In this document: positions 5,347-14,442 of the stretch, in pieces | How positions within the stretch are numbered: the first letter of the stretch is position 1 | Layout of the letters: each line of letters opens with the position of its first letter | Source of the DNA: an uncultured virus (IMG/VR IMGVR_UViG_3300033072_000717) | Lineage: Duplodnaviria > Heunggongvirae > Uroviricota > Caudoviricetes | Length of the DNA stretch: 20,000 nt | Strand: one strand, 5' to 3' | Virus record (IMG/VR): IMGVR_UViG_3300033072_000717 | Notes under the pieces: generated by a model | What the model saw: the letters and a program-made list of their open reading frames with translations, nothing else | What the model was told of the DNA's origin: nothing | The model's database searches: none | Translations under genes and position numbers: made by a program

Positions 5347-7041
5347 TCAGCGTGCCCAATCGAAGAAGCGCTTCCCGATGATGGCAGCGGCCTGACGCTT
5401 GTTCATCTTGACCGCCGCGGGATCGGGAATGCCGAGCTGCTTGAGAAAGTTCATTTGCCGGACGCTGGCCAAGCCAAGCCGTTCGCGGTCGCGGATGCGG
5501 GCGATGACCTTCTGTGCCAGCCCGGTCGTCTTGATCGCACTGGTGTCGATGCCGGCCTGAAGGATAAAGTCCAGCTCGGCGCGGGCCGGGGGGCGGGCAT
5601 CCGCCGTGGTTTCCGGGACATAGGACGCCAGGACCTCATCCCCGACCGAGACTGCCCATGCCAGGGGGTCAATCGTCCTCGGCTGCTTCTTACTGTGCTT
5701 CCGCGCCTCCTTCTCCAAGGTCTTGATCAGGTCCCGCTCGGCGTCCCTGGTCGCATCCTTCACGGCATCGAGCATGGACTTGGTGGACTTCTTCATCTTC
5801 TCCTTGATCTCCGCCGTATCAGCGACCGCATCAAGCGCGTCGCACAGGTCAATGCGCTCGTGAATCCAGAGCGGGTCCAAGATCAGCAGGTTGGGCTTTT
5901 TGCTGGCGGCGATTGCGGCGCGCCTTTCCTCGGCGGTCATTGACTGGTTTACCACCCCGGGGAGCACGCGGGTCCCGCGCCCGACCAGCTGCCGGTAGAA
6001 CCCCTTCGACTTGGTGGCCCGGGCGACCAGTACGCAATCGGTGTCAGGGAAGTCAGCACCCTCGGTGTAGAGCGCCGCATTCACCAGCACAGTGCCGGGT
6101 CCGGCGTCCACATAACGCTGGGTCTTCTCGTCCACATCCAGGCACTCGCCCGAGACGAAGATTCCGGTCATGCCCTTGGCTGTGATCGCATCGGCCAGCA
6201 GTTTGGCGCAGTGGATTGACGGCGTGAACGCGATGGTCTTTCGGTCCTTGGCCAACGCGGCCACCTGCTCGGCGAGGGCGCCGATGACGGGCTCCAGCTT
6301 GCGCGAAAGGTCGCCAGCCCGGAAGTCCGAGCCGTTCGGCGTGCGCCCGGGGCGAAGGTCGCGAATGTCAATCCTGAGCGGCATCGACTTGGTGGTCGGT
6401 GGCACCAGCCAGCCGTCCTCCACGGCGGAGATCAGGGAATACGGGGGTTCGACAAAGTAATCGAAGAACTCGGCCAGCTCCTCAATTGGGGTGGCCGTGA
6501 TACCGAGGACCCGCGCCTTGTGCTGGTAGGTGCCACGCGGGGGCGCGACCCAGCCCTCGGCCAGTGACTCGGCCCCGATGTGGAAGTAGTTCAGGACCCG
6601 CAGCCATGTTTCCGCGACAACGTGGTGACTTTCGTCGGCCACGATCAGGTCAAAGTGATCGTCGGCAAATGCGGAAAGTCGATTGACGCGGGCCAAAGTC
6701 TGCACGCTGGCCACCACGACCATGGCCTGCGGGCTTGCGCTCTCGCCCGCCATCTCGATCGCCGCCTCGACGCCGGTTTCGGCGGTGATGCGATGGGCGG
6801 ACTGCCTGACCAGCTTGTCGCGGTTCGCGAGGAACAGGCAGCGCCGCCCAGCGGCGACCTCGCGCCGGAAAATCTCGGCGGCAACGGTCGTCTTCCCTGT
6901 TCCGGTCGCCATCTCCAGCAGGATGCGCGGAAACCTCGGCCAATGCCGATAGATGGTGTCTATCCTGGTCAGCTGGTAGTCGCGCGGCGCAAACCCCGAG
7001 GCCGCAGGGGCGTCGTCGTCAAAGCACAAGCCTTCTGGCAT
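5347..7041 (-). CDS. Superfamily 2 DExH helicase (Irc3/YejH-like phage helicase)
   Basis: Q motif RDYQ, Walker A ATGTGKT, DESHH, GITATP, LYTEGADFP and QLVGRGTR. Confidence 0.93.
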   Translation of the reverse strand: MPEGLCFDDDAPAASGFAPRDYQLTRIDTIYRHWPRFPRILLEMATGTGKTTVAAEIFRREVAAGRRCLFLANRDKLVRQSAHRITAETGVEAAIEMAGESASPQAMVVVASVQTLARVNRLSAFADDHFDLIVADESHHVVAETWLRVLNYFHIGAESLAEGWVAPPRGTYQHKARVLGITATPIEELAEFFDYFVEPPYSLISAVEDGWLVPPTTKSMPLRIDIRDLRPGRTPNGSDFRAGDLSRKLEPVIGALAEQVAALAKDRKTIAFTPSIHCAKLLADAITAKGMTGIFVSGECLDVDEKTQRYVDAGPGTVLVNAALYTEGADFPDTDCVLVARATKSKGFYRQLVGRGTRVLPGVVNQSMTAEERRAAIAASKKPNLLILDPLWIHERIDLCDALDAVADTAEIKEKMKKSTKSMLDAVKDATRDAERDLIKTLEKEARKHSKKQPRTIDPLAWAVSVGDEVLASYVPETTADARPPARAELDFILQAGIDTSAIKTTGLAQKVIARIRDRERLGLASVRQMNFLKQLGIPDPAAVKMNKRQAAAIIGKRFFDWAR

Positions 7042-7077
7042 CGGGGTTGATTCTTGCTAAAGGGGTGGAGGGGAGGC

Positions 7078-7127
7078 GTTAGCGGGGGTTGATATGCGAA
7101 CCGCCGGTTTGATATTCAGTGTTAGGC
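7078..7127 (+). repeat. Array head element copy 1 (attI-like candidate) ending in core GTTAGGC
   Basis: 42/46 nt identical to 8599-8644, diverging right after GTT. Internal repeat GGTTGATAT/GTTTGATAT; no left AAC core. Confidence 0.6.
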
Positions 7128-7324
7128 CGAGAGAGGTCCAAGAACGCCGTGCATCGCGTGCCGTGAAGTTCGTTGGTCCACTTGTCGAAAAGCGGGCAGT
7201 AGCCGACATGCATCCGGGGCTGGCAGGGCTCCCAGTGGTGGCATGCGCGGCAGTGTCCCGCCGAACCCTCGCCTGTGCCAACGCTTTTGCTCTGTCCTTT
7301 TTCGGTTATGATTTCTCCGCTCAT
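7079..7324 (-). CDS. Cys-rich hypothetical cassette protein
   Basis: CRACHHW...YCPLFDKW...C pattern. The start lies in attC 7260-7378 with an ATGA overlap; the C-terminus runs into the head element. Confidence 0.7.
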   Translation of the reverse strand: MSGEIITEKGQSKSVGTGEGSAGHCRACHHWEPCQPRMHVGYCPLFDKWTNELHGTRCTAFLDLSRPNTEYQTGGSHINPR

Positions 7325-7378
7325 GGTTTCGGGGTGGTTGAAGGGTTGGGCCCGCCGTCGCTAAGCTTTTCGTTCGGA
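7260..7378 (+). repeat. attC-like site (arms pair poorly)
   Basis: GCCGAAC at 7260 and GCTAAGC-5 nt-GTTCGGA at 7372. Cores and spacing fit but the inner arms are mismatched. Confidence 0.55.
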
Positions 7379-7617
7379 AAGACGGCGGCGCGGAAGTTTG
7401 CGGGAGAGTCGGTATGATAGCGGAGGTCGTCGATGATGTCGCCAGCGGTGGTCAGGCATCCCTCGCGCGCGGTCTGCATGGCCAGCCATTCGCGGCACGC
7501 CTCAAGCGTGGATTCAATTTCCGAACCCGGCGCCAGAGCCAACGCCCGTTGCTGGGCCGGTTGGTCGGGGATGGCTCCAACGCTCGGGGCCGGTGAGTTG
7601 TTCGGGGCGTGGCTCAT
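7321..7617 (-). CDS. Hypothetical cassette protein
   Basis: 98-aa ORF whose start and stop both lie inside the flanking attC-like sites. Confidence 0.65.
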   Translation of the reverse strand: MSHAPNNSPAPSVGAIPDQPAQQRALALAPGSEIESTLEACREWLAMQTAREGCLTTAGDIIDDLRYHTDSPANFRAAVFPNEKLSDGGPNPSTTPKP

Positions 7618-7631
7618 CTTATTTGTTCGGC
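7520..7631 (+). repeat. attC-like site
   Basis: TCCGAAC...GAGCCA(A)CGC pairs with GCGTGGCTC...GTTCGGC. Confidence 0.7.
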
Positions 7632-7954
7632 CGACTGACCGTGATGGCGAATCGACCGATTTGGAGAATCACACGCGGGAGGTTTCTCGCGGCTTTAAGA
7701 TGGCTCTCGTTTGCGATGTCGCAGGCGAACACCCGCACTTCATGCGGCAGCGCGAGGTTGTCGGTGTGGTTCTGGAGTCTGTCCTTGCGCCCAGCCGCCC
7801 ACGCATCGCCAAGAAGTTTGTGGGCGTCGTTGAGCGCGGCTTGCTGCGTGCCTTTGGAGTAGCACAGCCAGAACCAAGAAGGCCCGGCCATGCGCCAGAG
7901 CCAGCGCCGGAGAGCGCCAGTGAGAATGCGGAGTCGTGGGGCGGCGTGGCTCAT
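7619..7954 (-). CDS. Hypothetical cassette protein
   Basis: Starts MSHA from the attC right arm, like the 7617 gene, and ends RPNK* in the next site. Confidence 0.5.
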   Translation of the reverse strand: MSHAAPRLRILTGALRRWLWRMAGPSWFWLCYSKGTQQAALNDAHKLLGDAWAAGRKDRLQNHTDNLALPHEVRVFACDIANESHLKAARNLPRVILQIGRFAITVSRPNK

Positions 7955-7969
7955 TTCGGAATGTTAGAC
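7882..7969 (+). repeat. attC-like site with mutated left core
   Basis: CGCCAGAGCCAGCGCC (7893-7908) pairs with GGCGTGGCTC, and GTTAGAC is at 7963. The left core reads GCCCGGC instead of ..AAC. Confidence 0.6.
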
Positions 7970-8014
7970 AAGGCAGACCATTTTCCCGGCGTCAGGAAAT
8001 TGGTTCTCCTTTGC

Positions 8015-8572
8015 CTAGCGCGGCTTCCCCCCTTCGCTGCGCCTGATAATGTCGTCCAAAACGGCCCGCACCGTCCTGATTTCCTGCGCGGTCATCTCCC
8101 CGCAGCGGAGCCGCATCGCGTCGTCGCTGAGGCCGCGCCACTCCCGCACGGCCACAGAACAGCAACCTTGTTCGAGCGAGGCGATTTCGCTCGGGGTCGG
8201 ATGCCCACGATAGCGGGCAATGTCATCGGCCATTTTTTGCGCCTCGGGCGAATGATGATTGTCGGCCCTAAAGATTCCATCGTGGGGCGGACCGGCTTCT
8301 TCCGCCTTGGGCTGCGCGATGATGCCCCGCAAGCGGGCGATCTCCGCAAGCGCGCATTGGGCAATCTCGATGGTGTGCGGGTGGAATCCGCCCTTGGATT
8401 CCGCGATGTAGGTAAGGCCGTCCGTGCCGTCGTTGAACCGGAAAAGCAGGGAGTGGGGTTCCGCCGGCTGGTCATCCCCATCCCTCCACAAGTCCAGGCC
8501 AAAAGCGGCGGCTTCGGCCTGGAGGCGGTCGGCGGCGGCGGACCACGAGGTGGGTTTTTCGGGTGGGTTCAT
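8015..8572 (-). CDS. Hypothetical phage protein
   Basis: 185-aa ORF co-oriented with the operon; C-terminal DAMRLRCGEMTAQEIRTVRAVL. No intact attC of its own is seen. Confidence 0.65.
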   Translation of the reverse strand: MNPPEKPTSWSAAADRLQAEAAAFGLDLWRDGDDQPAEPHSLLFRFNDGTDGLTYIAESKGGFHPHTIEIAQCALAEIARLRGIIAQPKAEEAGPPHDGIFRADNHHSPEAQKMADDIARYRGHPTPSEIASLEQGCCSVAVREWRGLSDDAMRLRCGEMTAQEIRTVRAVLDDIIRRSEGGKPR

Positions 8573-8598
8573 TTTTGGTAAGCTGGTGTTGGTTGGGG

Positions 8599-8648
8599 GT
8601 TAGCGGGGGTTGATATGCGAACCGGGAGTTTGATATTCACTGTTCAGC
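8599..8648 (+). repeat. Array head element copy 2 (attI-like candidate) ending in core GTTCAGC
   Basis: Near-identical to 7078-7127. Confidence 0.6.
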
Positions 8649-8972
8649 TTAGAGGGACATTGGGGTGTGCCACGCGTCGCCGAAGACCTCGCGGTCGTAG
8701 CGCTCCTCGGGCGTCTCGTCGTCCTCATCGAGCGGGTCGTCTTGCAGGTCGTCGCAGAGGCCACCGGCCAGCACGCCAGCGCACGGGCAGTCATTCGAGC
8801 ATCGGCAGTGCTTCGCCATGCTTTCGACCCACGCTTGATATTCGGGATCGTCCGGCATGTCGGGAGCCTCGGGAAGAAGAGCTGAACCAGGCGCCACACC
8901 CAATTCCGGGGCGCGGTCCGTTTCAGCTTCGGCGGGAGATTGCAGCGGGCGAGAGTCGTTCGGCGTATTCAT
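8649..8972 (-). CDS. Acidic Cys-cluster cassette protein
   Basis: HCRCSNDCPCAGVLAGGLCD motif and an acidic tail. ATGA-coupled start inside attC 8881-9011. Confidence 0.7.
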   Translation of the reverse strand: MNTPNDSRPLQSPAEAETDRAPELGVAPGSALLPEAPDMPDDPEYQAWVESMAKHCRCSNDCPCAGVLAGGLCDDLQDDPLDEDDETPEERYDREVFGDAWHTPMSL

Positions 8973-9011
8973 ATTTTCAGGCCCCGGAATTGGTGATCTT
9001 GGTGGTTCGGC
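8881..9011 (+). repeat. attC-like site
   Basis: GCTGAAC...CAC(C)CAATTCCGGGGC pairs with GCCCCGGAATTGGTG...GTTCGGC (15 bp with one bulge). Confidence 0.8.
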
Positions 9012-9433
9012 GGAAGCACCTCAGACGGGTGTCCGTATTTTTGCCACACGGGAGTCGGCTGTTTCTCTCTCGGTTCTAGCGTAGCCCGCAGTCGATCCAA
9101 GAACCTTGAGTCACCCGCCACGTCTGGATCGTCTTGCGCTTCGCAGTAATCGGATATTGCTACGCGGTATCGTGCAATCTCGGCGTCCAGTCGGACAATC
9201 TCGTGGTCATCCTTGGCCATTGCCGCGTCCATTTTTTCGAGCGTCTGGATTGCACGGAATAGCGTCAGCGTCACCGGGTGCTGATTTGCACGAAATTCGG
9301 CAGCCCACTCGCGGAGGTTATCCACAAGATAAGGCACGCCGAACAAGCGATCAGAGCCAACGCTGACAGCGGCTCCTTGGTTTTCGATAGTTGGATTTGT
9401 ATTCATGGGTTGAGAGTAGTTCTGCGCTGTCAT
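8969..9433 (-). CDS. Hypothetical cassette protein (coiled-coil-like)
   Basis: Start at 9433 or 9406, both inside attC 9338-9457. Ends PPNHQDHQFRGLKI* inside the next attC. Confidence 0.7.
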   Translation of the reverse strand: MTAQNYSQPMNTNPTIENQGAAVSVGSDRLFGVPYLVDNLREWAAEFRANQHPVTLTLFRAIQTLEKMDAAMAKDDHEIVRLDAEIARYRVAISDYCEAQDDPDVAGDSRFLDRLRATLEPREKQPTPVWQKYGHPSEVLPPNHQDHQFRGLKI

Positions 9434-9457
9434 CGTGGCTCACTCGCAGGGTTAGCT
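9338..9457 (+). repeat. attC-like site
   Basis: GCCGAAC AA GCGA..GAGCCA(A)CG.TGACAGCG pairs with CGCTGTCA.CGTGGCTC..TCGC AGG GTTAGCT. Confidence 0.85.
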
Positions 9458-9745
9458 GGCTTTCGCCTCGGCGGTTTCGCGCCGCAGAGGACACCAGTTT
9501 GGTTGTATGTCTTTTGACCCGATTTCGCGCCCATGTTCCAGCAGCCGCCCGCGTATCTCGCCTTGCTTCGCCGCAATCTTCGGGTCGTCAGACAGCGGTT
9601 CATCGTCGAAGGCTTCTGGATGTTTGCACACACAGTCGCAGGTGATTCCGTGGAGACGCGAGCAGAGCATGTTCGTGCGCTTCAGGTGTTCGCACGGCTC
9701 ACAGTGGCGTTCCGTTCTGGCCGGGATGTTGTGTGTCGTTGGCAT
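9452..9745 (-). CDS. Cys-rich hypothetical cassette protein
   Basis: HCEPCEH, CVCKHP and PNWCPL motifs. The TAA stop lies inside the core at 9451-9457. Confidence 0.75.
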   Translation of the reverse strand: MPTTHNIPARTERHCEPCEHLKRTNMLCSRLHGITCDCVCKHPEAFDDEPLSDDPKIAAKQGEIRGRLLEHGREIGSKDIQPNWCPLRRETAEAKAS

Positions 9746-10044
9746 TAGTCCTTTCGCATCGTGTCGAGCCAGCGGCAGAAGGCATCGTCACCGATTTCAT
9801 TGCAGATGACGGATTGCAGCATATCGCCGAGTTGATTCCACCCGATGTCATCACAGTCGAGATGGTGTTTCGCGTAGGCACAGAGGACGGCGTGCAGCAG
9901 CCGGTCGTTGCGGCCAGCGTGTTTGTTCAGTTCGTGGTAGTTCGGATTTGTGAGAGGTTCGACGCCAGCTAACAAAGCGGTGCAGCACAACTCGGCTTCG
10001 CGCTTGGCTTCGGACTTCGGTTTCTGGTTGGCGGTTGCGCTCAT
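9745..10044 (-). CDS. Hypothetical cassette protein
   Basis: TAATG-coupled to the downstream gene. ATGA-coupled start inside attC 9967-10101. Confidence 0.75.
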   Translation of the reverse strand: MSATANQKPKSEAKREAELCCTALLAGVEPLTNPNYHELNKHAGRNDRLLHAVLCAYAKHHLDCDDIGWNQLGDMLQSVICNEIGDDAFCRWLDTMRKD

Positions 10045-10101
10045 TTCATTCCTTCGCTTTCTGGTGTTCGGCCAGCCGAGTGGCTGACCTTATCGTTCGG
10101 C
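9967..10101 (+). repeat. attC-like site (best conserved)
   Basis: AGCTAAC AAAGC GGT(G)CAGC(A)CA(A)CTCGGCT pairs with AGCCGAG TG GCTG ACC TTATC GTTCGGC. This is a perfect stem with three unpaired bases in the left arm and 5-nt spacers. Confidence 0.9.
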
Positions 10102-10415
10102 CTATCGGGAATGACTTCGCCGCAGACCCAGCAATACACCTCGCCCTCGAATTGGTATTTCCTCGGATGCGTGCATTTGCCGCCGCCTACATCCACGTAG
10201 TCCGCCACACGCCGGCGGGCCGCGTGCAGTAGGTTGATCGAATCCGTCAGCCATGGGTGCGGCGGCATCGCGTCGATGATTTTCACGGCGTCCCAGATCG
10301 CCTTTTCGGCGGGCGTGAATTGGTCGATGCGGTCGCGGCGAATTGCCGAACCCTCGGCCACAGCACAACCGGCGTCTTTGTCCGGCTTGCGACTATTTTC
10401 AGTTGGATTTCGCAT
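10041..10415 (-). CDS. Hypothetical cassette protein with C-terminal CxH..CxxC motif
   Basis: 124-aa ORF with both ends inside attC-like sites. Confidence 0.75.
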   Translation of the reverse strand: MRNPTENSRKPDKDAGCAVAEGSAIRRDRIDQFTPAEKAIWDAVKIIDAMPPHPWLTDSINLLHAARRRVADYVDVGGGKCTHPRKYQFEGEVYCWVCGEVIPDRPNDKVSHSAGRTPESEGMK

Positions 10416-10469
10416 AGAGTGTTGGCGCGGCTTTAGCCCCGCGCCGGTGGCTGATCCGAACCGTTAGAT
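10345..10469 (+). repeat. attC-like site
   Basis: GCCGAAC..TCGG..CAGC(A)CA(A)CCGGCG pairs with CGCCGG TG GCTG..CCGA..GTTAGAT. Confidence 0.85.
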
Positions 10470-10685
10470 AAACTGAATCGGAAGTCTGTTCCACTTGCCG
10501 CACGACGGGCAGTTCGCCACCGCGCACTCGTCGTTTCGTCCGCGATTAAATGGGTAGTATCGGCGCGTTTCAAAGGGGCGCTTGCAGTTGCCGCAGATGA
10601 TCCCGGCCTTCGGGTTTCCCCAAAGACAGATATTCCACGCCTCGAAATGGGCGGCGTTGCAGAGTTGATCTTGGGTTATCGTCAT
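10464..10685 (-). CDS. Zinc-ribbon-like cassette protein
   Basis: ICGNC...NCPSCGKWN motifs. The TAA stop lies within the core at 10463-10469. Confidence 0.7.
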   Translation of the reverse strand: MTITQDQLCNAAHFEAWNICLWGNPKAGIICGNCKRPFETRRYYPFNRGRNDECAVANCPSCGKWNRLPIQFI

Positions 10686-10689
10686 AAGC

Positions 10690-10790
10690 ACCTAACAAAG
10701 CGCTGGGGACAATGCGGTCAGCTTTCACGCTGTCTTGTCGTGCAGGTTTATTTACGTTTGTTGATCTGGCGAAAGTTTCAGGTGTTCGGG
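10690..10790 (+). repeat. Degenerate or hybrid attC-like site
   Basis: ACCTAAC AAAG CGCTGG.. on the left and GTTCGGG at 10784. The inner arms do not pair. Confidence 0.45.
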
Positions 10791-11092
10791 CCGCGCGTCT
10801 CACCTTTGTCGTTCACCCTGCGTTTTTCGGCCCCGTAAATAACCTCCAGCGCCTTCCTTTGAAGCTCGGCGCGCTGTTCGGGCGTGTAGCTATTCATCCG
10901 CTTTCGCGCTTGCGCGCAGGCTCGCATGGTGCGCCGGTGCTGGTTGCGGCGGTGTGCGGCCATATCAACCAGATGGAACTCGCATCCGTCCGGGGTGCGG
11001 CGGGCAAAGCAGGAGAGGACCGCAATGAGCGCAGATTCTTTTGTTTTGGTCCCCTTAACGGTAAGGACGAACTGATGTTGTTTGATTTTCAT
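10778..11092 (-). CDS. Hypothetical basic protein
   Basis: 104-aa ORF ending GPNT* across the core at 10784. Confidence 0.65.
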   Translation of the reverse strand: MKIKQHQFVLTVKGTKTKESALIAVLSCFARRTPDGCEFHLVDMAAHRRNQHRRTMRACAQARKRMNSYTPEQRAELQRKALEVIYGAEKRRVNDKGETRGPNT

Positions 11093-11159
11093 GGAAATTA
11101 AAAGTGCTAACCAGTGGGTTCATAAAACGGCGGCGATCCTCTGTCTCGGTGCTCCGTGT

Positions 11160-11309
11160 TCACCCCATCCATCGGCGCAGCACCAGTTCAGCGGCCATCT
11201 CATCCGCGATCGCGCAGAAACGGTGCCAGTTGCGGCGGTTGCCAAAGGTTGATTTAACCTCGGGCAGTGCGTCGAAGAAGAAGTTCACCAAGCTTAGGTC
11301 GAATGCCAT
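11160..11309 (-). CDS. Small hypothetical protein (49 aa, MAFDLSLVNFFFDALPEV...)
   Basis: Read manually; it fills the gap in the minus-strand operon. Confidence 0.45.
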   Translation of the reverse strand: MAFDLSLVNFFFDALPEVKSTFGNRRNWHRFCAIADEMAAELVLRRWMG

Positions 11310-11319
11310 GTTTTGAGTT

Positions 11320-11577
11320 TTAAGGGGTGACCTGGCTCACCGTGACAGTCGGTTGGACCGAAGGCAAGAGCGGAAGGCGGATAAACCAGCCCGCTTCGTA
11401 CCAGGAGCCTTTGTATTTTTCAACGTGCTGCTTTGCGATGCGCACGTCAAAGGTGATGAAGTCGTTGATCGCTCGCTGGCCCGATGCGCAGTCGATGCCG
11501 GTGGTGTGCCCACACAAGAGCGCCGAACCCTCGGTTTCGCCCGGCGCCGCCTGGCGGTCTGGCTGGCCAACGCTCAT
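11320..11577 (-). CDS. Hypothetical protein, eroded cassette
   Basis: ATGA-coupled start. Carries the GCCGAACCCTCG left core at 11522 (the EGSA peptide seen in other cassettes). Confidence 0.6.
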   Translation of the reverse strand: MSVGQPDRQAAPGETEGSALLCGHTTGIDCASGQRAINDFITFDVRIAKQHVEKYKGSWYEAGWFIRLPLLPSVQPTVTVSQVTP

Positions 11578-11966
11578 CGCCCATTCCCCCCGACAAACTC
11601 CCGAATCCGCTTCGCGACCTCGGCTGGCGTGGTATAGCACCCTCGCGGGTATTGTGCAGACATAAAGAGCAAGCCGGCTTGCCGCAAATCAACCCCGAAG
11701 AAAGCCGTCACGGCTGCCCAGCTAACATGCCCTTTGTATTCTGGGACAGCCGTGTGCCGCTCGCGCTTCTTCAGTCGAAGCCCTGCCTTCTTAAACCCCG
11801 GGTGGGTTGTCGCCCAGCCAACTGCGCACGCGGTTGTCCCGCAGCCGCCAATGCGCTTGCCCTTCGGCTTGTGGGCCCAGCACGACAGGTCAAACTGCTC
11901 CTTGGGCACGGTGTCCAGCAGGTCGGCCAGCATGAGGAGCCGGCGGTGGGTGGCTTCGGTTTTCAT
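11574..11966 (-). CDS. Hypothetical phage protein (CGTTACAVGW motif)
   Basis: 130-aa ORF, ATGA-coupled at both ends. Confidence 0.75.
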   Translation of the reverse strand: MKTEATHRRLLMLADLLDTVPKEQFDLSCWAHKPKGKRIGGCGTTACAVGWATTHPGFKKAGLRLKKRERHTAVPEYKGHVSWAAVTAFFGVDLRQAGLLFMSAQYPRGCYTTPAEVAKRIREFVGGNGR

Positions 11967-12433
11967 TTCTCGTCGGGGGTTGGGCTATCGCCGTTCGGCC
12001 TGCTGCAAAGCGGGCGCAGGCACTCCTGGATCATTCCGATCGTCGTGGGGTCCGGCGCCCTCCTGCGCTCGTTCATCCACTCGACCAACTCATCCGCGTA
12101 TCGCTCGCGACAGCGTATCAAGTCCCGGGCTTCTGCGAGCGATACGCAGCAATCGGCCACATCCAGCCGCCGCGACAGCGCAACCAGCAGCCCCTCCGCC
12201 GACCCGGGCGTGAGCCCGAACGTGAGTTCGCAGGTTTTGCCGTCGTCGGTGGGCCGAAAGAAGCGGAGGCAGTAGCCGCCATGCTCCTTGATGCGCCAGA
12301 CTTCCACCCTCCGGCCTTCGCCGCAGTCCACCGTGATGCCGTCGGTCAGCGTGGCGTTCCTGATCCTGCCGATGTTGGCCTCGTGGAAGGGGACGGTCTC
12401 CGCCGTGTGTGACTCGATCAAATCCTTATTCAT
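11963..12433 (-). CDS. Hypothetical phage protein
   Basis: 156-aa ORF, the first large gene of the minus-strand operon. Ends RPNGDSPTPDEK* across GTTCGGC at 11993. Confidence 0.65.
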   Translation of the reverse strand: MNKDLIESHTAETVPFHEANIGRIRNATLTDGITVDCGEGRRVEVWRIKEHGGYCLRFFRPTDDGKTCELTFGLTPGSAEGLLVALSRRLDVADCCVSLAEARDLIRCRERYADELVEWMNERRRAPDPTTIGMIQECLRPLCSRPNGDSPTPDEK

Positions 12434-12722
12434 GCGGGCCTCCGATCTTGGGGCGCCACCCCCGCGCCCTCAGCATCAACCATGATCAGCTTTTTCATCG
12501 TGCCCAAGCCAAATCACAGGTGCGCCCATCCGTCAAGCGGTTTTTTGGGCCAGCTCCATCGCCAGCCCGCTTGCCCACCACCGCATCCTCCACCGCCAGC
12601 CCGCCCTCCCCCCAAGCCGCCCCCCAAGCCAATTTTCTCTGACGGCAAAATCCGCCGCCCCCTGCTATTGTAAAAATCCCGAGCATCCCGCTGACTCCCA
12701 CTGTGTTACCACCACTTTCGGC

Positions 12723-13186
12723 TGCAATTGTAAAATCTCGGAAGTAACCTCCCGGCGGTTTTGAAATGTAAAAGTCCTAAGTCGCTGATCATCAGGGCGG
12801 GGAAACCTCTCGTGATAGTTACTTCCGAGTTACTTCCGAGCCCTTTTTTTACACTTTTCTCTGACAGCAAAAAAGCTTCGGAAGTAACCTCCCGCCGAAA
12901 AACGGGCCAAAAACCGGGGCAGAAAGGCGGCCCGGAACTTCCACTACCGGATAGAGGGCAGCGACTTCCGTGAGCGGGGATCGGCGGCTGTGTGCAATTG
13001 TAAAATCTCGGAAGTAACTCGGAAGTAACTCGGAAGTAACTGCCCTTTTTGGGGCCAGACGGCGGCTCGTAAGTAACCCTCAGGCTGGCCCCCCCCTAAA
13101 GGGGGGGCCAGCACTGTAGGTAGTTACTTCCGAGCGCAGAACGCCGTCAAGACATGGCCGGGGGTTACTTCCGACTTTTTACAATT
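12723..13186. repeat. Cluster of ten 11-bp TCGGAAGTAAC repeats around a GC hairpin (candidate origin or operator array)
   Basis: + copies at 12738, 12878, 13008, 13019, 13030 and 13067 (1 mismatch); - copies at 12818, 12829, 13123 and 13164. Hairpin GCTGGC7/G7CCAGC at 13084-13112. Confidence 0.85.
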
Positions 13187-13687
13187 CAAACGGGGTGGGG
13201 AGCCAAAGCCCAGACTACGCCCAGAAATCACGCCAGAACCCCAGGATTGATGCGATGGCCAAACCAGGATGCCCCATTCCGCCAATCCTTTGAACCCAGG
13301 ATGAACTTTTCGGCATGTCGTGACCCCAGATACTCGGGATGCGTTAAACGCAGCGGAAATGGCCTTGGTGGGCGTGTTGGGTTTTGGGGCTGTTCCGCCG
13401 CTGCCCCTGCCCGCTGGTGCCACCCCGCCTGCTGATCAATTTCAAATCCGGGGGTCGAGAAAAGGGGTAGGGGGTGGATTCCGGCGAACGGAAAAGGGGT
13501 GGGCGTGTTGGGCGTCCTTAAAGGGGTTATCGAGAAGGGTTGGGGGGGTTGCTGCGGGTGGTCGAGCAGGGGGTGGTGGGTGGCCCCTGCCAGTCGCCCC
13601 GGCAGCCAGTCCCGGCGAGATCGCCGCGCGGCCGGCCTAGCCCGCCTGGCGAGCTGTTGAGACTGGCAGAGAGCAGTCATGCGGAAT

Positions 13688-13715: not shown

Positions 13716-13856
13716 AGTCCACTTGTGCAAGTCAGTGCGAGCCAGTGCCTTGCGCTTGTTGAGACTGGCAAACGCGCGGGCTTGCGGCAAATGGCCCTAG
13801 TGTGCTAGGGGGAATCCCCTACGCGCCTGCAAGCCTAGCCGGATCAGCGCACGGCA

Positions 13857-14442
13857 CCAGGCGGCCGGTGCGGAACATGGCTTCCTCGGCGGTGATGTTC
13901 TCGGTCGGGTAGAACTCGATCCGGTCGATTTGGACGCGGTCGGCGTCCCAGTAATGCGGATTGCGCTCGACCGCGATGCGCTGGTTGCGGGCCCATTCGA
14001 CGAGGCGGTAGGGGCCGCTGCTGACGAAGCGCCCGGCGCGGGTCCAGGGCACGCTGCGCTGGTCGAGGGGTCCGTGGGACGTGATCGCGTGCAGGGGCAG
14101 GGGCCACCATGAGTAGTGGTTGGCCATGAGGCGGAGGAGGAAGGGGGTGGGGGAGTTGAGGGTGACGGTGACCGTGCTCTCGTCGGGAGCGGCGAAGCCG
14201 ACCTGGGACCAGTCGGTGAGCCGGCCCTTGTTGTAGGCCTCGGCGCCGACGACGAACCACAGGTGGTAGGAGTACTCGGAGCCGAGCGCGGGGGTGAGCA
14301 TGCGCCGGAAGGAGGCCACGATCTCGGAAGCGGTGATCGGGACGCCGTCGGACCACTTCAGGCCGGGACGGAGGTGGAAGGTGTAGACACGGCCGTCGGG
14401 GGAGATGTCCCAGCGTTCGGCGAGGCCCGGCTCGGGCTCGGC
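13857..14442 (-). pseudogene. oppA: Internal fragment of a bacterial peptide ABC transporter substrate-binding protein (SBP family 5, OppA-like)
   Basis: EPGLAERWDISPDGRVYTFHLRPGLKWSDGVPITA...SSGPYRLVEW...ERNPHYWD...AMFRTGRL. It has no start, signal peptide or C-terminal half. Confidence 0.9.

What the first reader, a model, noticed from the sequence alone, without database searches (positions are those of the whole stretch)
7121..10696. Each cassette's two core sequences are complementary to each other, the footprint of circular intermediates
Seen: the core opening each unit matches the reverse complement of the core closing that same unit. GTTCGGAAA 7372 / TTTCCGAAC 7518 (9/9); GTTCAGCT 8642 / AGCTGAAC 8880 (8/8); GTTCGGCG 9005 / CGCCGAAC 9337 (8/8); GTTAGCTGGC 9451 / GCCAGCTAAC 9964 (10/10); GTTCGGC 10095 / GCCGAAC 10345 (7/7); GTTAGGC 7121 / GCCGAAC 7260 (6/7); GTTAGAT 10463 / ACCTAAC 10690 (6/7). 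Cores within one hairpin mostly mismatch. Established: integron crossover at G|TT moves the rest of R' to the front of the cassette, giving exactly this pattern. Inference: these units were inserted by site-specific recombination, not simple repeat-mediated exchange.
Basis: partly seen in the sequence, partly recalled or inferred. Interest (0 to 1): 0.85.

Follow-up and report, generated by a model that had tools for sequence, protein, structure and literature searches.

The report
Integron gene cassettes inside a phage
A row of small early genes in an uncultured bacteriophage is built from integron gene cassettes whose recombination sites match those of integrons in its likely hosts. The genes run backwards through the sites, which suggests that phages borrow the bacterial gene-shuffling machinery.

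Summary

- **Coordinates and chance.** All 14 core strings sit at the stated coordinates. GTT…AAC-anchored inverted repeats number 6, against a mean of 0.37 in shuffles.
- **Pairing of cores.** Each unit's own pairing beats shuffled pairings: 10 of 5040 permutations reach it by run length and 1 of 5040 by folding energy.
- **Setting.** The window lies in a 54-kb phage record.
- **Site family.** A covariance model built only from bacterial sites finds 7 co-oriented sites at 7520-10817. In two Verrucomicrobiota genomes the same family forms arrays of 21 and 15 sites beside integron integrases.
- **Mobility.** One cassette (9006-9451) recurs at about 99.7% identity in contigs from three other studies. 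Their flanks become unlike exactly at the GTT cores.
- **No integrase.** The record encodes no detectable integrase, so this is a CALIN, a cluster of attC sites lacking an integrase. CALINs in phages are known (PMC9892861).
- **What is new.** The layout is reversed. In 27 of 28 viral sites, against 28 of 125 bacterial ones, an ORF on the bottom strand starts inside the attC. The attC therefore supplies the start codon and N-terminal leader, and the next cassette supplies the tail and stop.

The parts
7520..7631 (+). attC site b: R'' TCCGAAC, L'' GAGCCAAC, L' GTGGCTCA, R' GTTCGGC. Holds the start codon (7617) of ORF 7321..7617(-).
   Evidence: Covariance model R1, 49.3 bits, E 9e-11. Boxes read.
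7882..7969 (+). attC site x, short with a degenerate R''. R' is GTTAGAC at 7963. Holds the start codon (7954) of ORF 7619..7954(-).
   Evidence: R1, 30.4 bits, E 2.4e-6. L'-R' pattern match.
8881..9011 (+). attC site c: R'' GCTGAAC, R' GTTCGGC. Its long hairpin includes a 13-nt perfect stem. Holds the start (8972) of ORF 8649..8972(-).
   Evidence: R1, 34.3 bits. Fold z-score -2.9 on the + strand. Arm alignment.
9338..9457 (+). attC site d: R'' GCCGAAC, L'' GAGCCAAC, L' GTGGCTCA, R' GTTAGCT. Holds the start (9433) of ORF 8969..9433(-).
   Evidence: R1, 36.2 bits. Identical over 9289-9453 in locus L047.
9967..10101 (+). attC site e: R'' AGCTAAC, R' GTTCGGC. Holds the start (10044) of ORF 9745..10044(-).
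   Evidence: R1, 30.7 bits. Arm alignment.
10345..10469 (+). attC site f: R'' GCCGAAC, R' GTTAGAT. Holds the start (10415) of ORF 10041..10415(-).
   Evidence: R1, 29.2 bits with filters off. 92% identical to a site in L047 that follows a different gene body.
10690..10817 (+). attC site g: R'' ACCTAAC, R' GTTCACC at 10811. ORF 10464..10691(-) starts just outside its R''.
   Evidence: R1, 40.1 bits.
9006..9451 (+). Cassette with independently confirmed ends. It begins TTCGGCGG, carries the gene body on the minus strand and site d, and ends with the G of the next core.
   Evidence: Contigs of runs X1, X5 and X6 match 9005/9006 to 9453/9455 with 1 other letter each, then run on unlike on both sides. 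L047 breaks at the same right end.
7373..7625 (+). Cassette with cores GTTCGGAAA / TTTCCGAAC (9/9), carrying ORF 7321..7617(-).
   Evidence: Homologue P0033 shares the body and diverges after FPN.
8643..9005 (+). Cassette with cores GTTCAGCT / AGCTGAAC (8/8), carrying ORF 8649..8972(-). Its opening core ends repeat D1, not an attC.
   Evidence: 40 homologues keep the body under varied leaders that end at G|S.
9452..10095 (+). Two-gene cassette with cores GTTAGCTGGC / GCCAGCTAAC (10/10), carrying ORFs 9452..9745(-) and 9745..10044(-). The TAA of the core is the stop codon.
10096..10463 (+). Cassette with cores GTTCGGC / GCCGAAC (7/7, at consensus level only), carrying ORF 10041..10415(-).
   Evidence: P0040 differs in its leader and in its tail after PN.
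10464..10811 (+). Cassette with cores GTTAGAT / ACCTAAC (6/7), carrying ORF 10464..10691(-).
7260..7378 (+). Degenerate or doubtful site a. R'' GCCGAAC and R' GTTCGGA are present, but the L boxes are weak.
   Evidence: R1, 6.3 bits, E = 1. No gain on circularisation.
7044..7133 (+). Repeat D1, copy 1. It ends in GTTAGGC at 7121, lies upstream of the helicase start, and encodes the tail of ORF 7079..7324(-).
   Evidence: 78% identical to copy 2. A contig of run X14 matches 7078-7123.
8565..8654 (+). Repeat D1, copy 2. It ends in GTTCAGC at 8642 and lies upstream of ORF 8015..8572(-).
5347..7041 (-). ResIII / DEAD-box helicase. This is the fixed phage gene downstream of the array in the direction of transcription.
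   Evidence: Pfam PF04851, E 6e-26. phrog_16, E 2.5e-59.

Best explanation
**What it is.** The units are integron gene cassettes, and the 88-131-nt elements between them are attC sites of the type used by integrons of Verrucomicrobiota. They sit in the early operon of an uncultured phage that has no detectable integrase of its own. That makes the array a CALIN, a cluster of attC sites lacking an integrase.

**Mechanism (established knowledge of integrons, not shown here).**
- The bottom strand of an attC folds so that R'' pairs with R' and L'' pairs with L', leaving extra bases on the R''-L'' arm.
- An IntI tyrosine recombinase cuts between G and TT of R' and exchanges strands with another attC (excision as a circle) or with an attI or secondary GTT site (insertion).
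- The six bases after the G therefore travel with the next cassette. Each cassette in an array opens with the complement of its own R''.

**Shown here.** Family membership of the sites, their polarity, the core complementarity, and the exact ends of one cassette in four contexts.

**Inferred.** The host's IntI acts on the phage DNA during infection.

**Peculiar to the phage.**
- The genes are on the bottom strand.
- The attC carries the ribosome-binding region, the start codon and 20-35 leader codons of its own cassette's gene.
- Where the core reads CCGAA|C, the gene runs into the next cassette, which supplies a short tail and the stop. Where the core reads CTAA|C, its TAA is the stop.
For: **1. 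Model test.** Model R1 was built from 33 bacterial sites and contained none from the window, G001 or L047. It finds 7 sites in 6500-13500, all on the + strand, at 29-49 bits. The best minus-strand hit scores 11.5 bits. It gives no hit in the control loci L005 and L006.

**2. Link to IntI.**
- G002:C101 has a TIGR02249 match of 367 bits (cut-off 265) at 28879-29793. It is followed by 21 sites at 30309-43433.
- G005:C8 has a match of 371 bits, followed by 15 sites.
- In the G002 array, 19 of 20 neighbouring sites show R' matched 7/7 by the next R''. This includes all 4 non-consensus R' (read).

**3. Cassette ends.** Contigs of three studies match 9005/9006 to 9453/9455 with 1 other letter each and unlike flanks. 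Their left flanks carry another L' box, and their right flanks open new cores (GTTAGGC, GTTCTGC, GTTCGGC).

**4. Core pairing beyond this window.**
- Thirteen complete sites were found by a pattern that ignores the opening cores, in this genome and in G001. The site's own R'' finds a GTT-anchored complement of 7 nt or more in 13 of 13, and of 8 nt or more in 10 of 13.
- None of 20000 permutations reaches the observed sum.
- L047 shows six consecutive cassettes with 8/8, 8/8, 9/9, 8/8, 8/8 and 7/7 (read by eye).

**5. Proteins.**
- 13 of 32 homologues of ORF 8969..9433 share its leader at about 90% or more and then continue with unrelated bodies, breaking at ...SDRL|(F/L).
- 11 of 11 homologues that keep the C-terminal region diverge right after (P/S)PN.
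- The same holds.

**6. A DNA-level constraint, not a peptide one.** The box GCGTTGGC-N9-10-GTTCGG is read in two different frames.
Against: - No integrase, resolvase or Y1 transposase is found in the 54-kb record, which is estimated 79% complete. None is found in the complete relative G001 either.
- No excised circle or joint was seen (which laid contigs only).
- IntegronFinder's and HattCI's own attC models could not be run.
- The R' consensus GTTCGGC departs from the textbook GTTRRRY at its fourth base.
- The spacer between the R and L boxes is about 9 nt, against about 5 nt as I recall it for class 1 sites.
- The gene orientation is opposite to that of ordinary cassettes.
- Leaders also recombine with bodies at R''. 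The simple one-crossover model does not predict this. It needs top-strand recombination, homologous exchange or unknown cassette genesis.
- The third IntI locus tested (L095) has no such sites.
- Only one cassette has ends confirmed by independent DNA.
Confidence: 0.8

Rival explanations
1. Passive cargo. The array is a piece of a host chromosomal integron picked up by the phage through illegitimate or homologous recombination, and it is not shuffled in the phage.
For: The site family is the same as in bacterial arrays. The phage has no integrase. Fragments of chromosomal integrons in phages are reported (PMC9892861; section heading 3.1 seen in the outline, section 3.4 read).
Against: - Orientation is systematically opposite. 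27 of 28 viral sites, against 28 of 125 bacterial sites, have a bottom-strand ORF starting in the site (Fisher p = 1e-13).
- The sites here differ from one another, unlike the uniform bacterial arrays.
- The genes are tightly coupled and co-oriented with the phage operon.
- The same cassette has other neighbours in L047 and in three metagenomes, and those flanks are of the phage type.
- G001 carries many sites dispersed over its genome.
Confidence: 0.1
2. The junction elements are RNA or DNA hairpins that serve regulation (translational coupling, processing, termination). The mosaic ends come from homologous recombination within these conserved junctions.
For: - The start codon lies in or next to the L' box, so on the mRNA it would be sequestered in the stem.
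- Sites c and d fold better than shuffles, with z-scores of -2.9 and -2.0.
- Identity within the 9006-9451 cassette drops partway through the body in L047, which shows that homologous exchange also occurs.
Against: - It does not explain why each unit's opening core is complementary to its own R'' rather than to its hairpin partner.
- It does not explain why breaks fall on the GTT triplet to within 1-2 nt in different, non-homologous flanks.
- It does not explain why the family sits in arrays next to IntI.
- Sites a, e, f and g do not fold better than shuffles as RNA.
Confidence: 0.06
3. Chance, plus codon usage and a shared peptide motif (N-terminal ...EGSA and C-terminal ...RPN) in a GC-rich phage.
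For: GTTCGG and CCGAAC are not over-represented genome-wide.
Against: - None of the 500 shuffles reaches the observed count.
- 1 of 5040 and 0 of 20000 permutations reach the observed values.
- The box is read in different frames and also in non-coding sequence.
- The model built only from bacterial sites hits only one strand.
Confidence: 0.01

Closest known systems
CALINs (clusters of attC sites lacking an integron integrase) in phage genomes, Qi et al. 2023, PMC9892861 (abstract and section 3.4 read)
   Same: Both are clusters of attC sites without an integrase in phage genomes, including virulent ones. In that paper, 5 of 6 tested attC sites from virulent phages were recombined by IntI1 at G|TTRRRY. 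The paper also notes inverted GTTRRRY motifs at the boundaries of the elements.
   Different: - Here there are 7 model-supported sites in one early operon.
- The site family is that of Verrucomicrobiota integrons.
- The genes are on the bottom strand and start inside the attC.
- The reading frames cross the recombination points.

In the section I read, that paper describes same-direction cassettes as typical and mentions divergent sites only as exceptions. I did not see its supplementary tables.
Chromosomal integrons of Verrucomicrobiota (G002:C101, titled 'Verrucomicrobia bacterium OH_PBrB_58'; G005:C8, titled Horticoccus sp.), found here
   Same: Same attC architecture: R'' GCCGAAC, about 9 nt, L'' GAGCCAAC, a loop, L' GTGGCTCA, 8 nt, R' GTTCGGC. 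Same signature in which R' matches the next R''.
   Different: - The bacterial arrays sit beside IntI.
- Their sites are nearly identical to one another.
- Their ORFs lie on the top strand between R' and R'': 102 of 125 sites have a top-strand ORF just after R'.
Vibrio cholerae superintegron with VCR sites (recalled, not checked here)
   Same: One attC sequence family is attached to many unrelated genes. Here likewise, one leader-bearing site is attached to at least 13 unrelated bodies.
   Different: VCR cassettes are mostly co-oriented with their attC, and the array has its own IntIA.
Promoter-stem-loop (PeSL) mobile regulatory cassettes of T4-type phages (recalled, not checked here)
   Same: Short conserved structured repeats at gene junctions of phage early regions that flank shuffled small genes.
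   Different: PeSL exchange is thought to work by homologous recombination between the repeats. Here the ends fall on a GTT triplet, and the sites belong to an integron attC family.

Membership tests
integron attC site | Outer inverted boxes R'' (...AAC) and R' (GTT...) with conserved AAC and GTT triplets | tested here: met
   All 7 sites end in GTT plus 4 bases, and 6 of 7 begin with ...AAC (site x is degenerate). The fourth base of R' is often C (GTTCGGC), outside the textbook GTTRRRY, but it is also C in the arrays beside IntI.
integron attC site | Inner boxes L''/L' forming an imperfect stem, with extra (extrahelical) bases on the R''-L'' arm, which sets strand polarity | tested here: met
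   L'' GAGCCAAC against L' GTGGCTCA leaves one extra A on the R''-L'' arm. In the arm alignments of sites c, d, e and f, the extra bases lie mostly on that arm. Model scores are 29-49 bits on the + strand and 11.5 bits or less on the minus strand.
integron attC site | Match to a covariance model of attC sites | tested here: met
   A model built here from 33 bacterial sites of this family finds 7 sites, E from 9e-11 to 4.5e-6. The model built from INTEGRALL sites in IntegronFinder (10.1101/030866, passages read) could not be run. See the next row.
integron attC site | Detection by IntegronFinder or HattCI | not testable with these tools
Rfam gave no match.
integron attC site | The site family occurs in arrays next to an integron integrase | tested here: met
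   G002:C101: IntI at 367 bits plus 21 sites. G005:C8: IntI at 371 bits plus 15 sites. The third IntI locus tested (G004:C100) has none.
integron gene cassette | The cassette opens with the complement of its own R'' (a chimeric site left by crossover at G|TT) | tested here: met
   It is weak for units 7121/7260 and 10463/10690.
integron gene cassette | Discrete unit found in other contexts with its ends at G|TT | tested here: met
   Met for one cassette only (9006-9451), in runs X1, X5 and X6 and in L047. The other cassettes are supported only by protein-level breaks.
integron gene cassette | ORF on the top strand between R' and R'', with the attC downstream of it (the usual layout) | tested here: not met
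   All ORFs are on the minus (bottom) strand. 6 of 7 sites hold the start codon. Across contigs, 27 of 28 viral sites have such an ORF, against 28 of 125 bacterial sites.
complete integron | intI and attI adjacent to the array | tested here: not met
   PF00589 and TIGR02249 give no match in the record even at E up to 10. The record is estimated 79% complete.
CALIN | At least two attC sites with no nearby intI (definition in 10.1101/030866, passages read) | tested here: met
   7 sites and no intI in 54 kb.
integron attC site | Recombination by an IntI in vivo or in vitro | not testable with these tools
   This needs a bench assay.

The most novel reading that the evidence does not exclude
Phages of Verrucomicrobiota have turned their hosts' attC sites into in-frame gene junctions. 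Each site, read on its bottom strand, encodes the tail and stop of one early gene, then the ribosome-binding region, start codon and leader of the next. A host integron integrase could then swap, delete or import whole early genes (plausibly host-takeover or counter-defence genes) between co-infecting phages without breaking the operon. This would be an integron-style gene library run by a virus, using an enzyme it does not encode, and in the orientation opposite to every bacterial integron.
Probability: 0.5. Interest if true: 0.85.

Novelty: new variant of a known kind. Interest (0 to 1): 0.72.

Why it matters
Integrons are known as bacterial gene-capture devices. Recent work finds that their cassettes often carry anti-phage defence genes (10.1101/2024.07.02.601719, abstract seen in a search listing).

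Here the same recombination sites organise the early genes of phages, in a consistent reversed and translationally fused layout. That layout appears in 27 of 28 sites from 16 viral records. If host IntI acts on them, three things follow:
- Phages gain a site-specific route to shuffle early genes.
- Phage and host would share one cassette currency.
- The sharply bounded mosaicism of small phage genes would have a concrete mechanism.

The finding also gives a testable attC family for integrons of Verrucomicrobiota. My searches turned up no specific paper on these integrons. Those searches cover only the open-access library.

Tried and rejected
- **Helicase relatives.** Relatives from viral, metagenome and genome collections are only 48-57% identical. 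They share none of the small ORFs and none of the motifs. They later served as negative controls.
- **D1 repeat.** An exact search for its 25-nt core in viral contigs found nothing.
- **Family searches on the small ORFs.** Pfam and PHROGs gave nothing usable.
- **Rfam.** No match in the region.
- **Peptide-signal idea.** I first read the N-terminal ...SVG...EGSA and C-terminal ...RPN motifs as a targeting or cleavage signal. I dropped this because the DNA boxes are read in different frames and also in non-coding sequence.
- **Mini-transposon idea.** I considered units with terminal inverted repeats. I dropped it because the repeats differ from unit to unit and the mobile piece is unit plus site.
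- **RNA folding alone.** Inconclusive: z-scores run from +0.8 to -2.9.
- **MAFFT alignment of the window's own sites.** Too poor for a model, so the model was built from bacterial sites instead.
- **Laid reads.** No joints or circles appeared among the laid contigs. Only 3 of the 13 small-share runs were laid, so the other 10 say nothing.
- **Site a (7260-7378).** Not supported by the model.
- **Shared cassettes with bacteria.** tblastn of the window's small proteins against all fetched loci found no cassette shared with the bacterial arrays in this small sample.
- **Third IntI locus.** The IntI locus of G004 has no sites of this family.
- **One literature search.** It failed on a term format and was not repeated.

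Full report
**What is in the window.**
- The window is bases 32601-52600 of a 54.1-kb IMG/VR virus record, estimated 79% complete and 62.7% G+C.
- Between 7079 and 12433 lie about 15 small ORFs, all on the minus strand. Their starts and stops abut or overlap, and their G+C by codon position follows the usual coding pattern.
- They lie upstream, in the direction of transcription, of a ResIII/DEAD helicase at 5347..7041.
- None of the small ORFs has a usable Pfam or PHROG match.
- The rest of the record carries phage genes: head morphogenesis, exonucleases, and a 1979-residue polyvalent protein.

**Checking the observation.**
The cores that face each other across one hairpin pair for only 6, 4, 4, 3, 3, 3 nt.
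- The cores were picked by eye, so I also counted every perfect inverted repeat of 8 nt or more anchored on GTT, 100-650 nt apart, in 7001-10800. I found 6, against a mean of 0.374 and a maximum of 3 in 500 dinucleotide shuffles. Inverted repeats with any anchor are not enriched (27 against 29.8).
5 of 7 sites become 2.6-8.2 kcal/mol more stable when closed on their own unit's start. The own-start assignment is the best of 5040.
- The hexamers are not enriched genome-wide but are concentrated here.

**Anatomy of the junction elements.** On the + strand each element reads:
- R'' (YYGAAC or CTAAC);
- about 9 nt of spacer;
- L'' (GAGCCAAC or a variant);
- a loop;
- L' (GTGGCTSA);
- 8-9 nt of spacer;
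- R' (GTT plus 4 bases).

L'' carries one more base than L'. In the whole 54-kb record, both composite patterns occur only on the + strand and only in 7262-10713. Those patterns were derived from these sites, so only their absence elsewhere is informative. The boxes are read in different frames and also in non-coding sequence. The constraint therefore acts on the nucleic acid, not on a peptide.

**Comparative evidence from proteins.**
- ORF 8969..9433 has 32 homologues. In 13 of them its 30-residue leader is kept at about 90% or more but is followed by unrelated sequence, with the break at ...SDRL|(F/L). On the DNA this is the G|TT of the core.
- Others carry the same body under different leaders.
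- All 11 homologues that keep the C-terminal region diverge immediately after (P/S)PN, which is CCGAA|C.
- ORFs 7321..7617, 10041..10415 and 8649..8972 behave the same way.

**Comparative evidence from DNA.**
- Thirteen runs from seven studies hold 5-7% of the sampled words of 7000-12500. I laid three of them: activated sludge, drinking water and freshwater.
- In each, contigs match the window from 9005/9006 to 9453/9455 with 1 other letter. They then continue with unlike sequence on both sides.
- The left flanks each carry another L'-like box and spacer. In one of them the base before TTCGG is A instead of G, which places that break between 9005 and 9006.
- The right flanks open new cores: GTTAGGC, GTTCTGC and GTTCGGC.
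- This is a cassette with ends at G|TT on the + strand.

**What family the sites belong to.**
- A strict pattern of the four boxes found 15 viral contigs and 56 loci in bacterial genomes. Roughly three quarters of the bacterial loci have titles from Verrucomicrobiota lineages such as Opitutaceae, Geminisphaera, Rariglobus, Lacunisphaera, Puniceicoccales and Horticoccus. The phylum assignment of these names is from my own knowledge.
- In contig G002:C101, an integron integrase scores 367 bits against a cut-off of 265 (TIGR02249). It lies about 500 bp upstream of 21 nearly identical, co-oriented sites.
- There, 19 of 20 neighbouring sites show R' matched 7/7 by the next R'', including all four non-consensus cores.
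- In G005:C8, a second integrase (371 bits) is followed by 15 sites. A third integrase locus has none.
- A covariance model built from 33 bacterial sites only finds 7 sites in the window, all on the + strand: 7520-7631, 7882-7969, 8881-9011, 9338-9457, 9967-10101, 10345-10469 and 10690-10817. E-values run from 9e-11 to 4.5e-6.
- The best minus-strand score is 11.5 bits. The element at 7260-7378 scores 6.3 bits (E = 1) and is not supported.
- The model gives no hit in the two helicase-relative control loci.

**The signature holds beyond the window.**
- G001 is a complete 69.9-kb phage record with terminal repeats and no tyrosine recombinase. It carries many sites of the family, dispersed over its genome.
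- Over 13 complete sites of the two phage genomes, found without reference to the opening cores, the site's own R'' finds a GTT-anchored complement of 7 nt or more in 13 of 13, and of 8 nt or more in 10 of 13. None of 20000 permutations reaches the observed sum.
- The unit-specific cores include GTTGGGGGC, GTTAGCCG, GTTCTGC and GTTGGGCG.
- Locus L047 is a 54.6-kb contig binned in a Sulfuritalea MAG, but phage-like in its layout. It has six consecutive cassettes with 8/8, 8/8, 9/9, 8/8, 8/8 and 7/7 (read by eye).
- L047 also carries site d identically and a 92% copy of site f behind a different gene body. The window's two intervening cassettes are absent there.

**What differs from ordinary integrons.**
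- No integrase, resolvase or Y1 transposase is detectable in the record.
- The genes are on the bottom strand. 6 of the 7 sites contain the start codon of the gene that then reads through R'' into the cassette body.
- Where the body ends in CCGAA|C, the frame continues into the next cassette for 1-16 codons before a stop. Where the core is CTAA|C, its TAA is the stop.
- I applied a crude ORF test: ATG starts only, 50 codons or more. It gives 27 of 28 distinct viral sites with such a bottom-strand ORF, against 28 of 125 bacterial sites. A top-strand ORF just after R' is found at 8 of 28 viral and 102 of 125 bacterial sites (Fisher p = 1e-13).
- Limits of this test: "viral" and "bacterial" are the collections' labels, and some MAG contigs may be phages (L047 is one). 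Long ORFs also arise by chance in GC-rich DNA.

**What stays open.**
- Leaders also recombine with bodies at R''. This needs top-strand recombination, homologous exchange or the unknown process that creates cassettes.
- Homologous exchange certainly occurs as well: identity to L047 drops inside the cassette body.
- No circles or joints were seen, but only contigs were laid.
- The functions of the cassette proteins are unknown. Several are small and rich in cysteine.
- One homologue of the 8649..8972 body is annotated in Geminisphaera colitermitum. This fits a Verrucomicrobiota host.

**Comparison with the literature.**
- Clusters of attC sites without an integrase were reported in 17 phages, and attC sites of virulent phages were shown to recombine with IntI1 (PMC9892861; abstract and section 3.4 read, supplements not seen).
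- The attC features and the definition of a CALIN come from 10.1101/030866 (passages read).
- Four searches turned up nothing on cassettes whose genes start inside the attC on the bottom strand, or on phage arrays with Verrucomicrobiota-type sites. The library holds open-access papers only.

**Verdict.** The thing is a known kind (attC cassettes in a phage) in a new and apparently systematic variant.

Noticed in passing
window 7044-7133 and 8565-8654: A 90-nt direct repeat (78% identical) with an internal doublet TTGATAT...TTGATAT. Each copy lies just upstream of a fixed gene (the helicase, and ORF 8015..8572) and ends in a GTT core where a cassette begins. A contig of run X14 matches only 7078-7123. 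It may be a phage promoter or an attI-like or secondary insertion site.
   Followed up: partly
window 12735-13176: About nine copies, in both orientations, of a 12-nt iteron (GTTACTTCCGAG and its complement). They lie in the 1.3-kb gene-free region at the head of the early operon, so this is a likely control region or replication origin.
   Followed up: no
window 13819-14319 (-): A 166-residue fragment of a bacterial solute-binding protein (SBP_bac_5, E 2e-23) with a third-codon-position G+C of 0.92. It sits between phage genes and looks like a captured piece of host DNA.
   Followed up: no
L047 (contig of 54,624 bases, binned in a Sulfuritalea MAG): It carries at least 8 model hits on one strand, with minus-strand genes starting in the sites, and it shares site d identically with the window. 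It is probably a phage contig related to this one that was mis-binned into a bacterial MAG.
   Followed up: partly
window 10412-10424; also L010 and G001 sites: The words CATAGAGTGTTGG (on the coding strand, CAACACTCTATG) recur just upstream of start codons inside several sites. This may be a conserved translation-initiation region without a classical Shine-Dalgarno sequence.
   Followed up: no
L003:6214-12153 (outside the window, same record): A 1979-residue protein with an ADP-ribosyltransferase domain of the polyvalent-protein type (PF18760, E 3.5e-13).
   Followed up: no
L093 (G002:C101) against L094 (G005:C8): In one bacterial integron the integrase match is on the same strand as the attC sites. 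In the other it is on the opposite strand. Both layouts therefore occur within this attC family.
   Followed up: no
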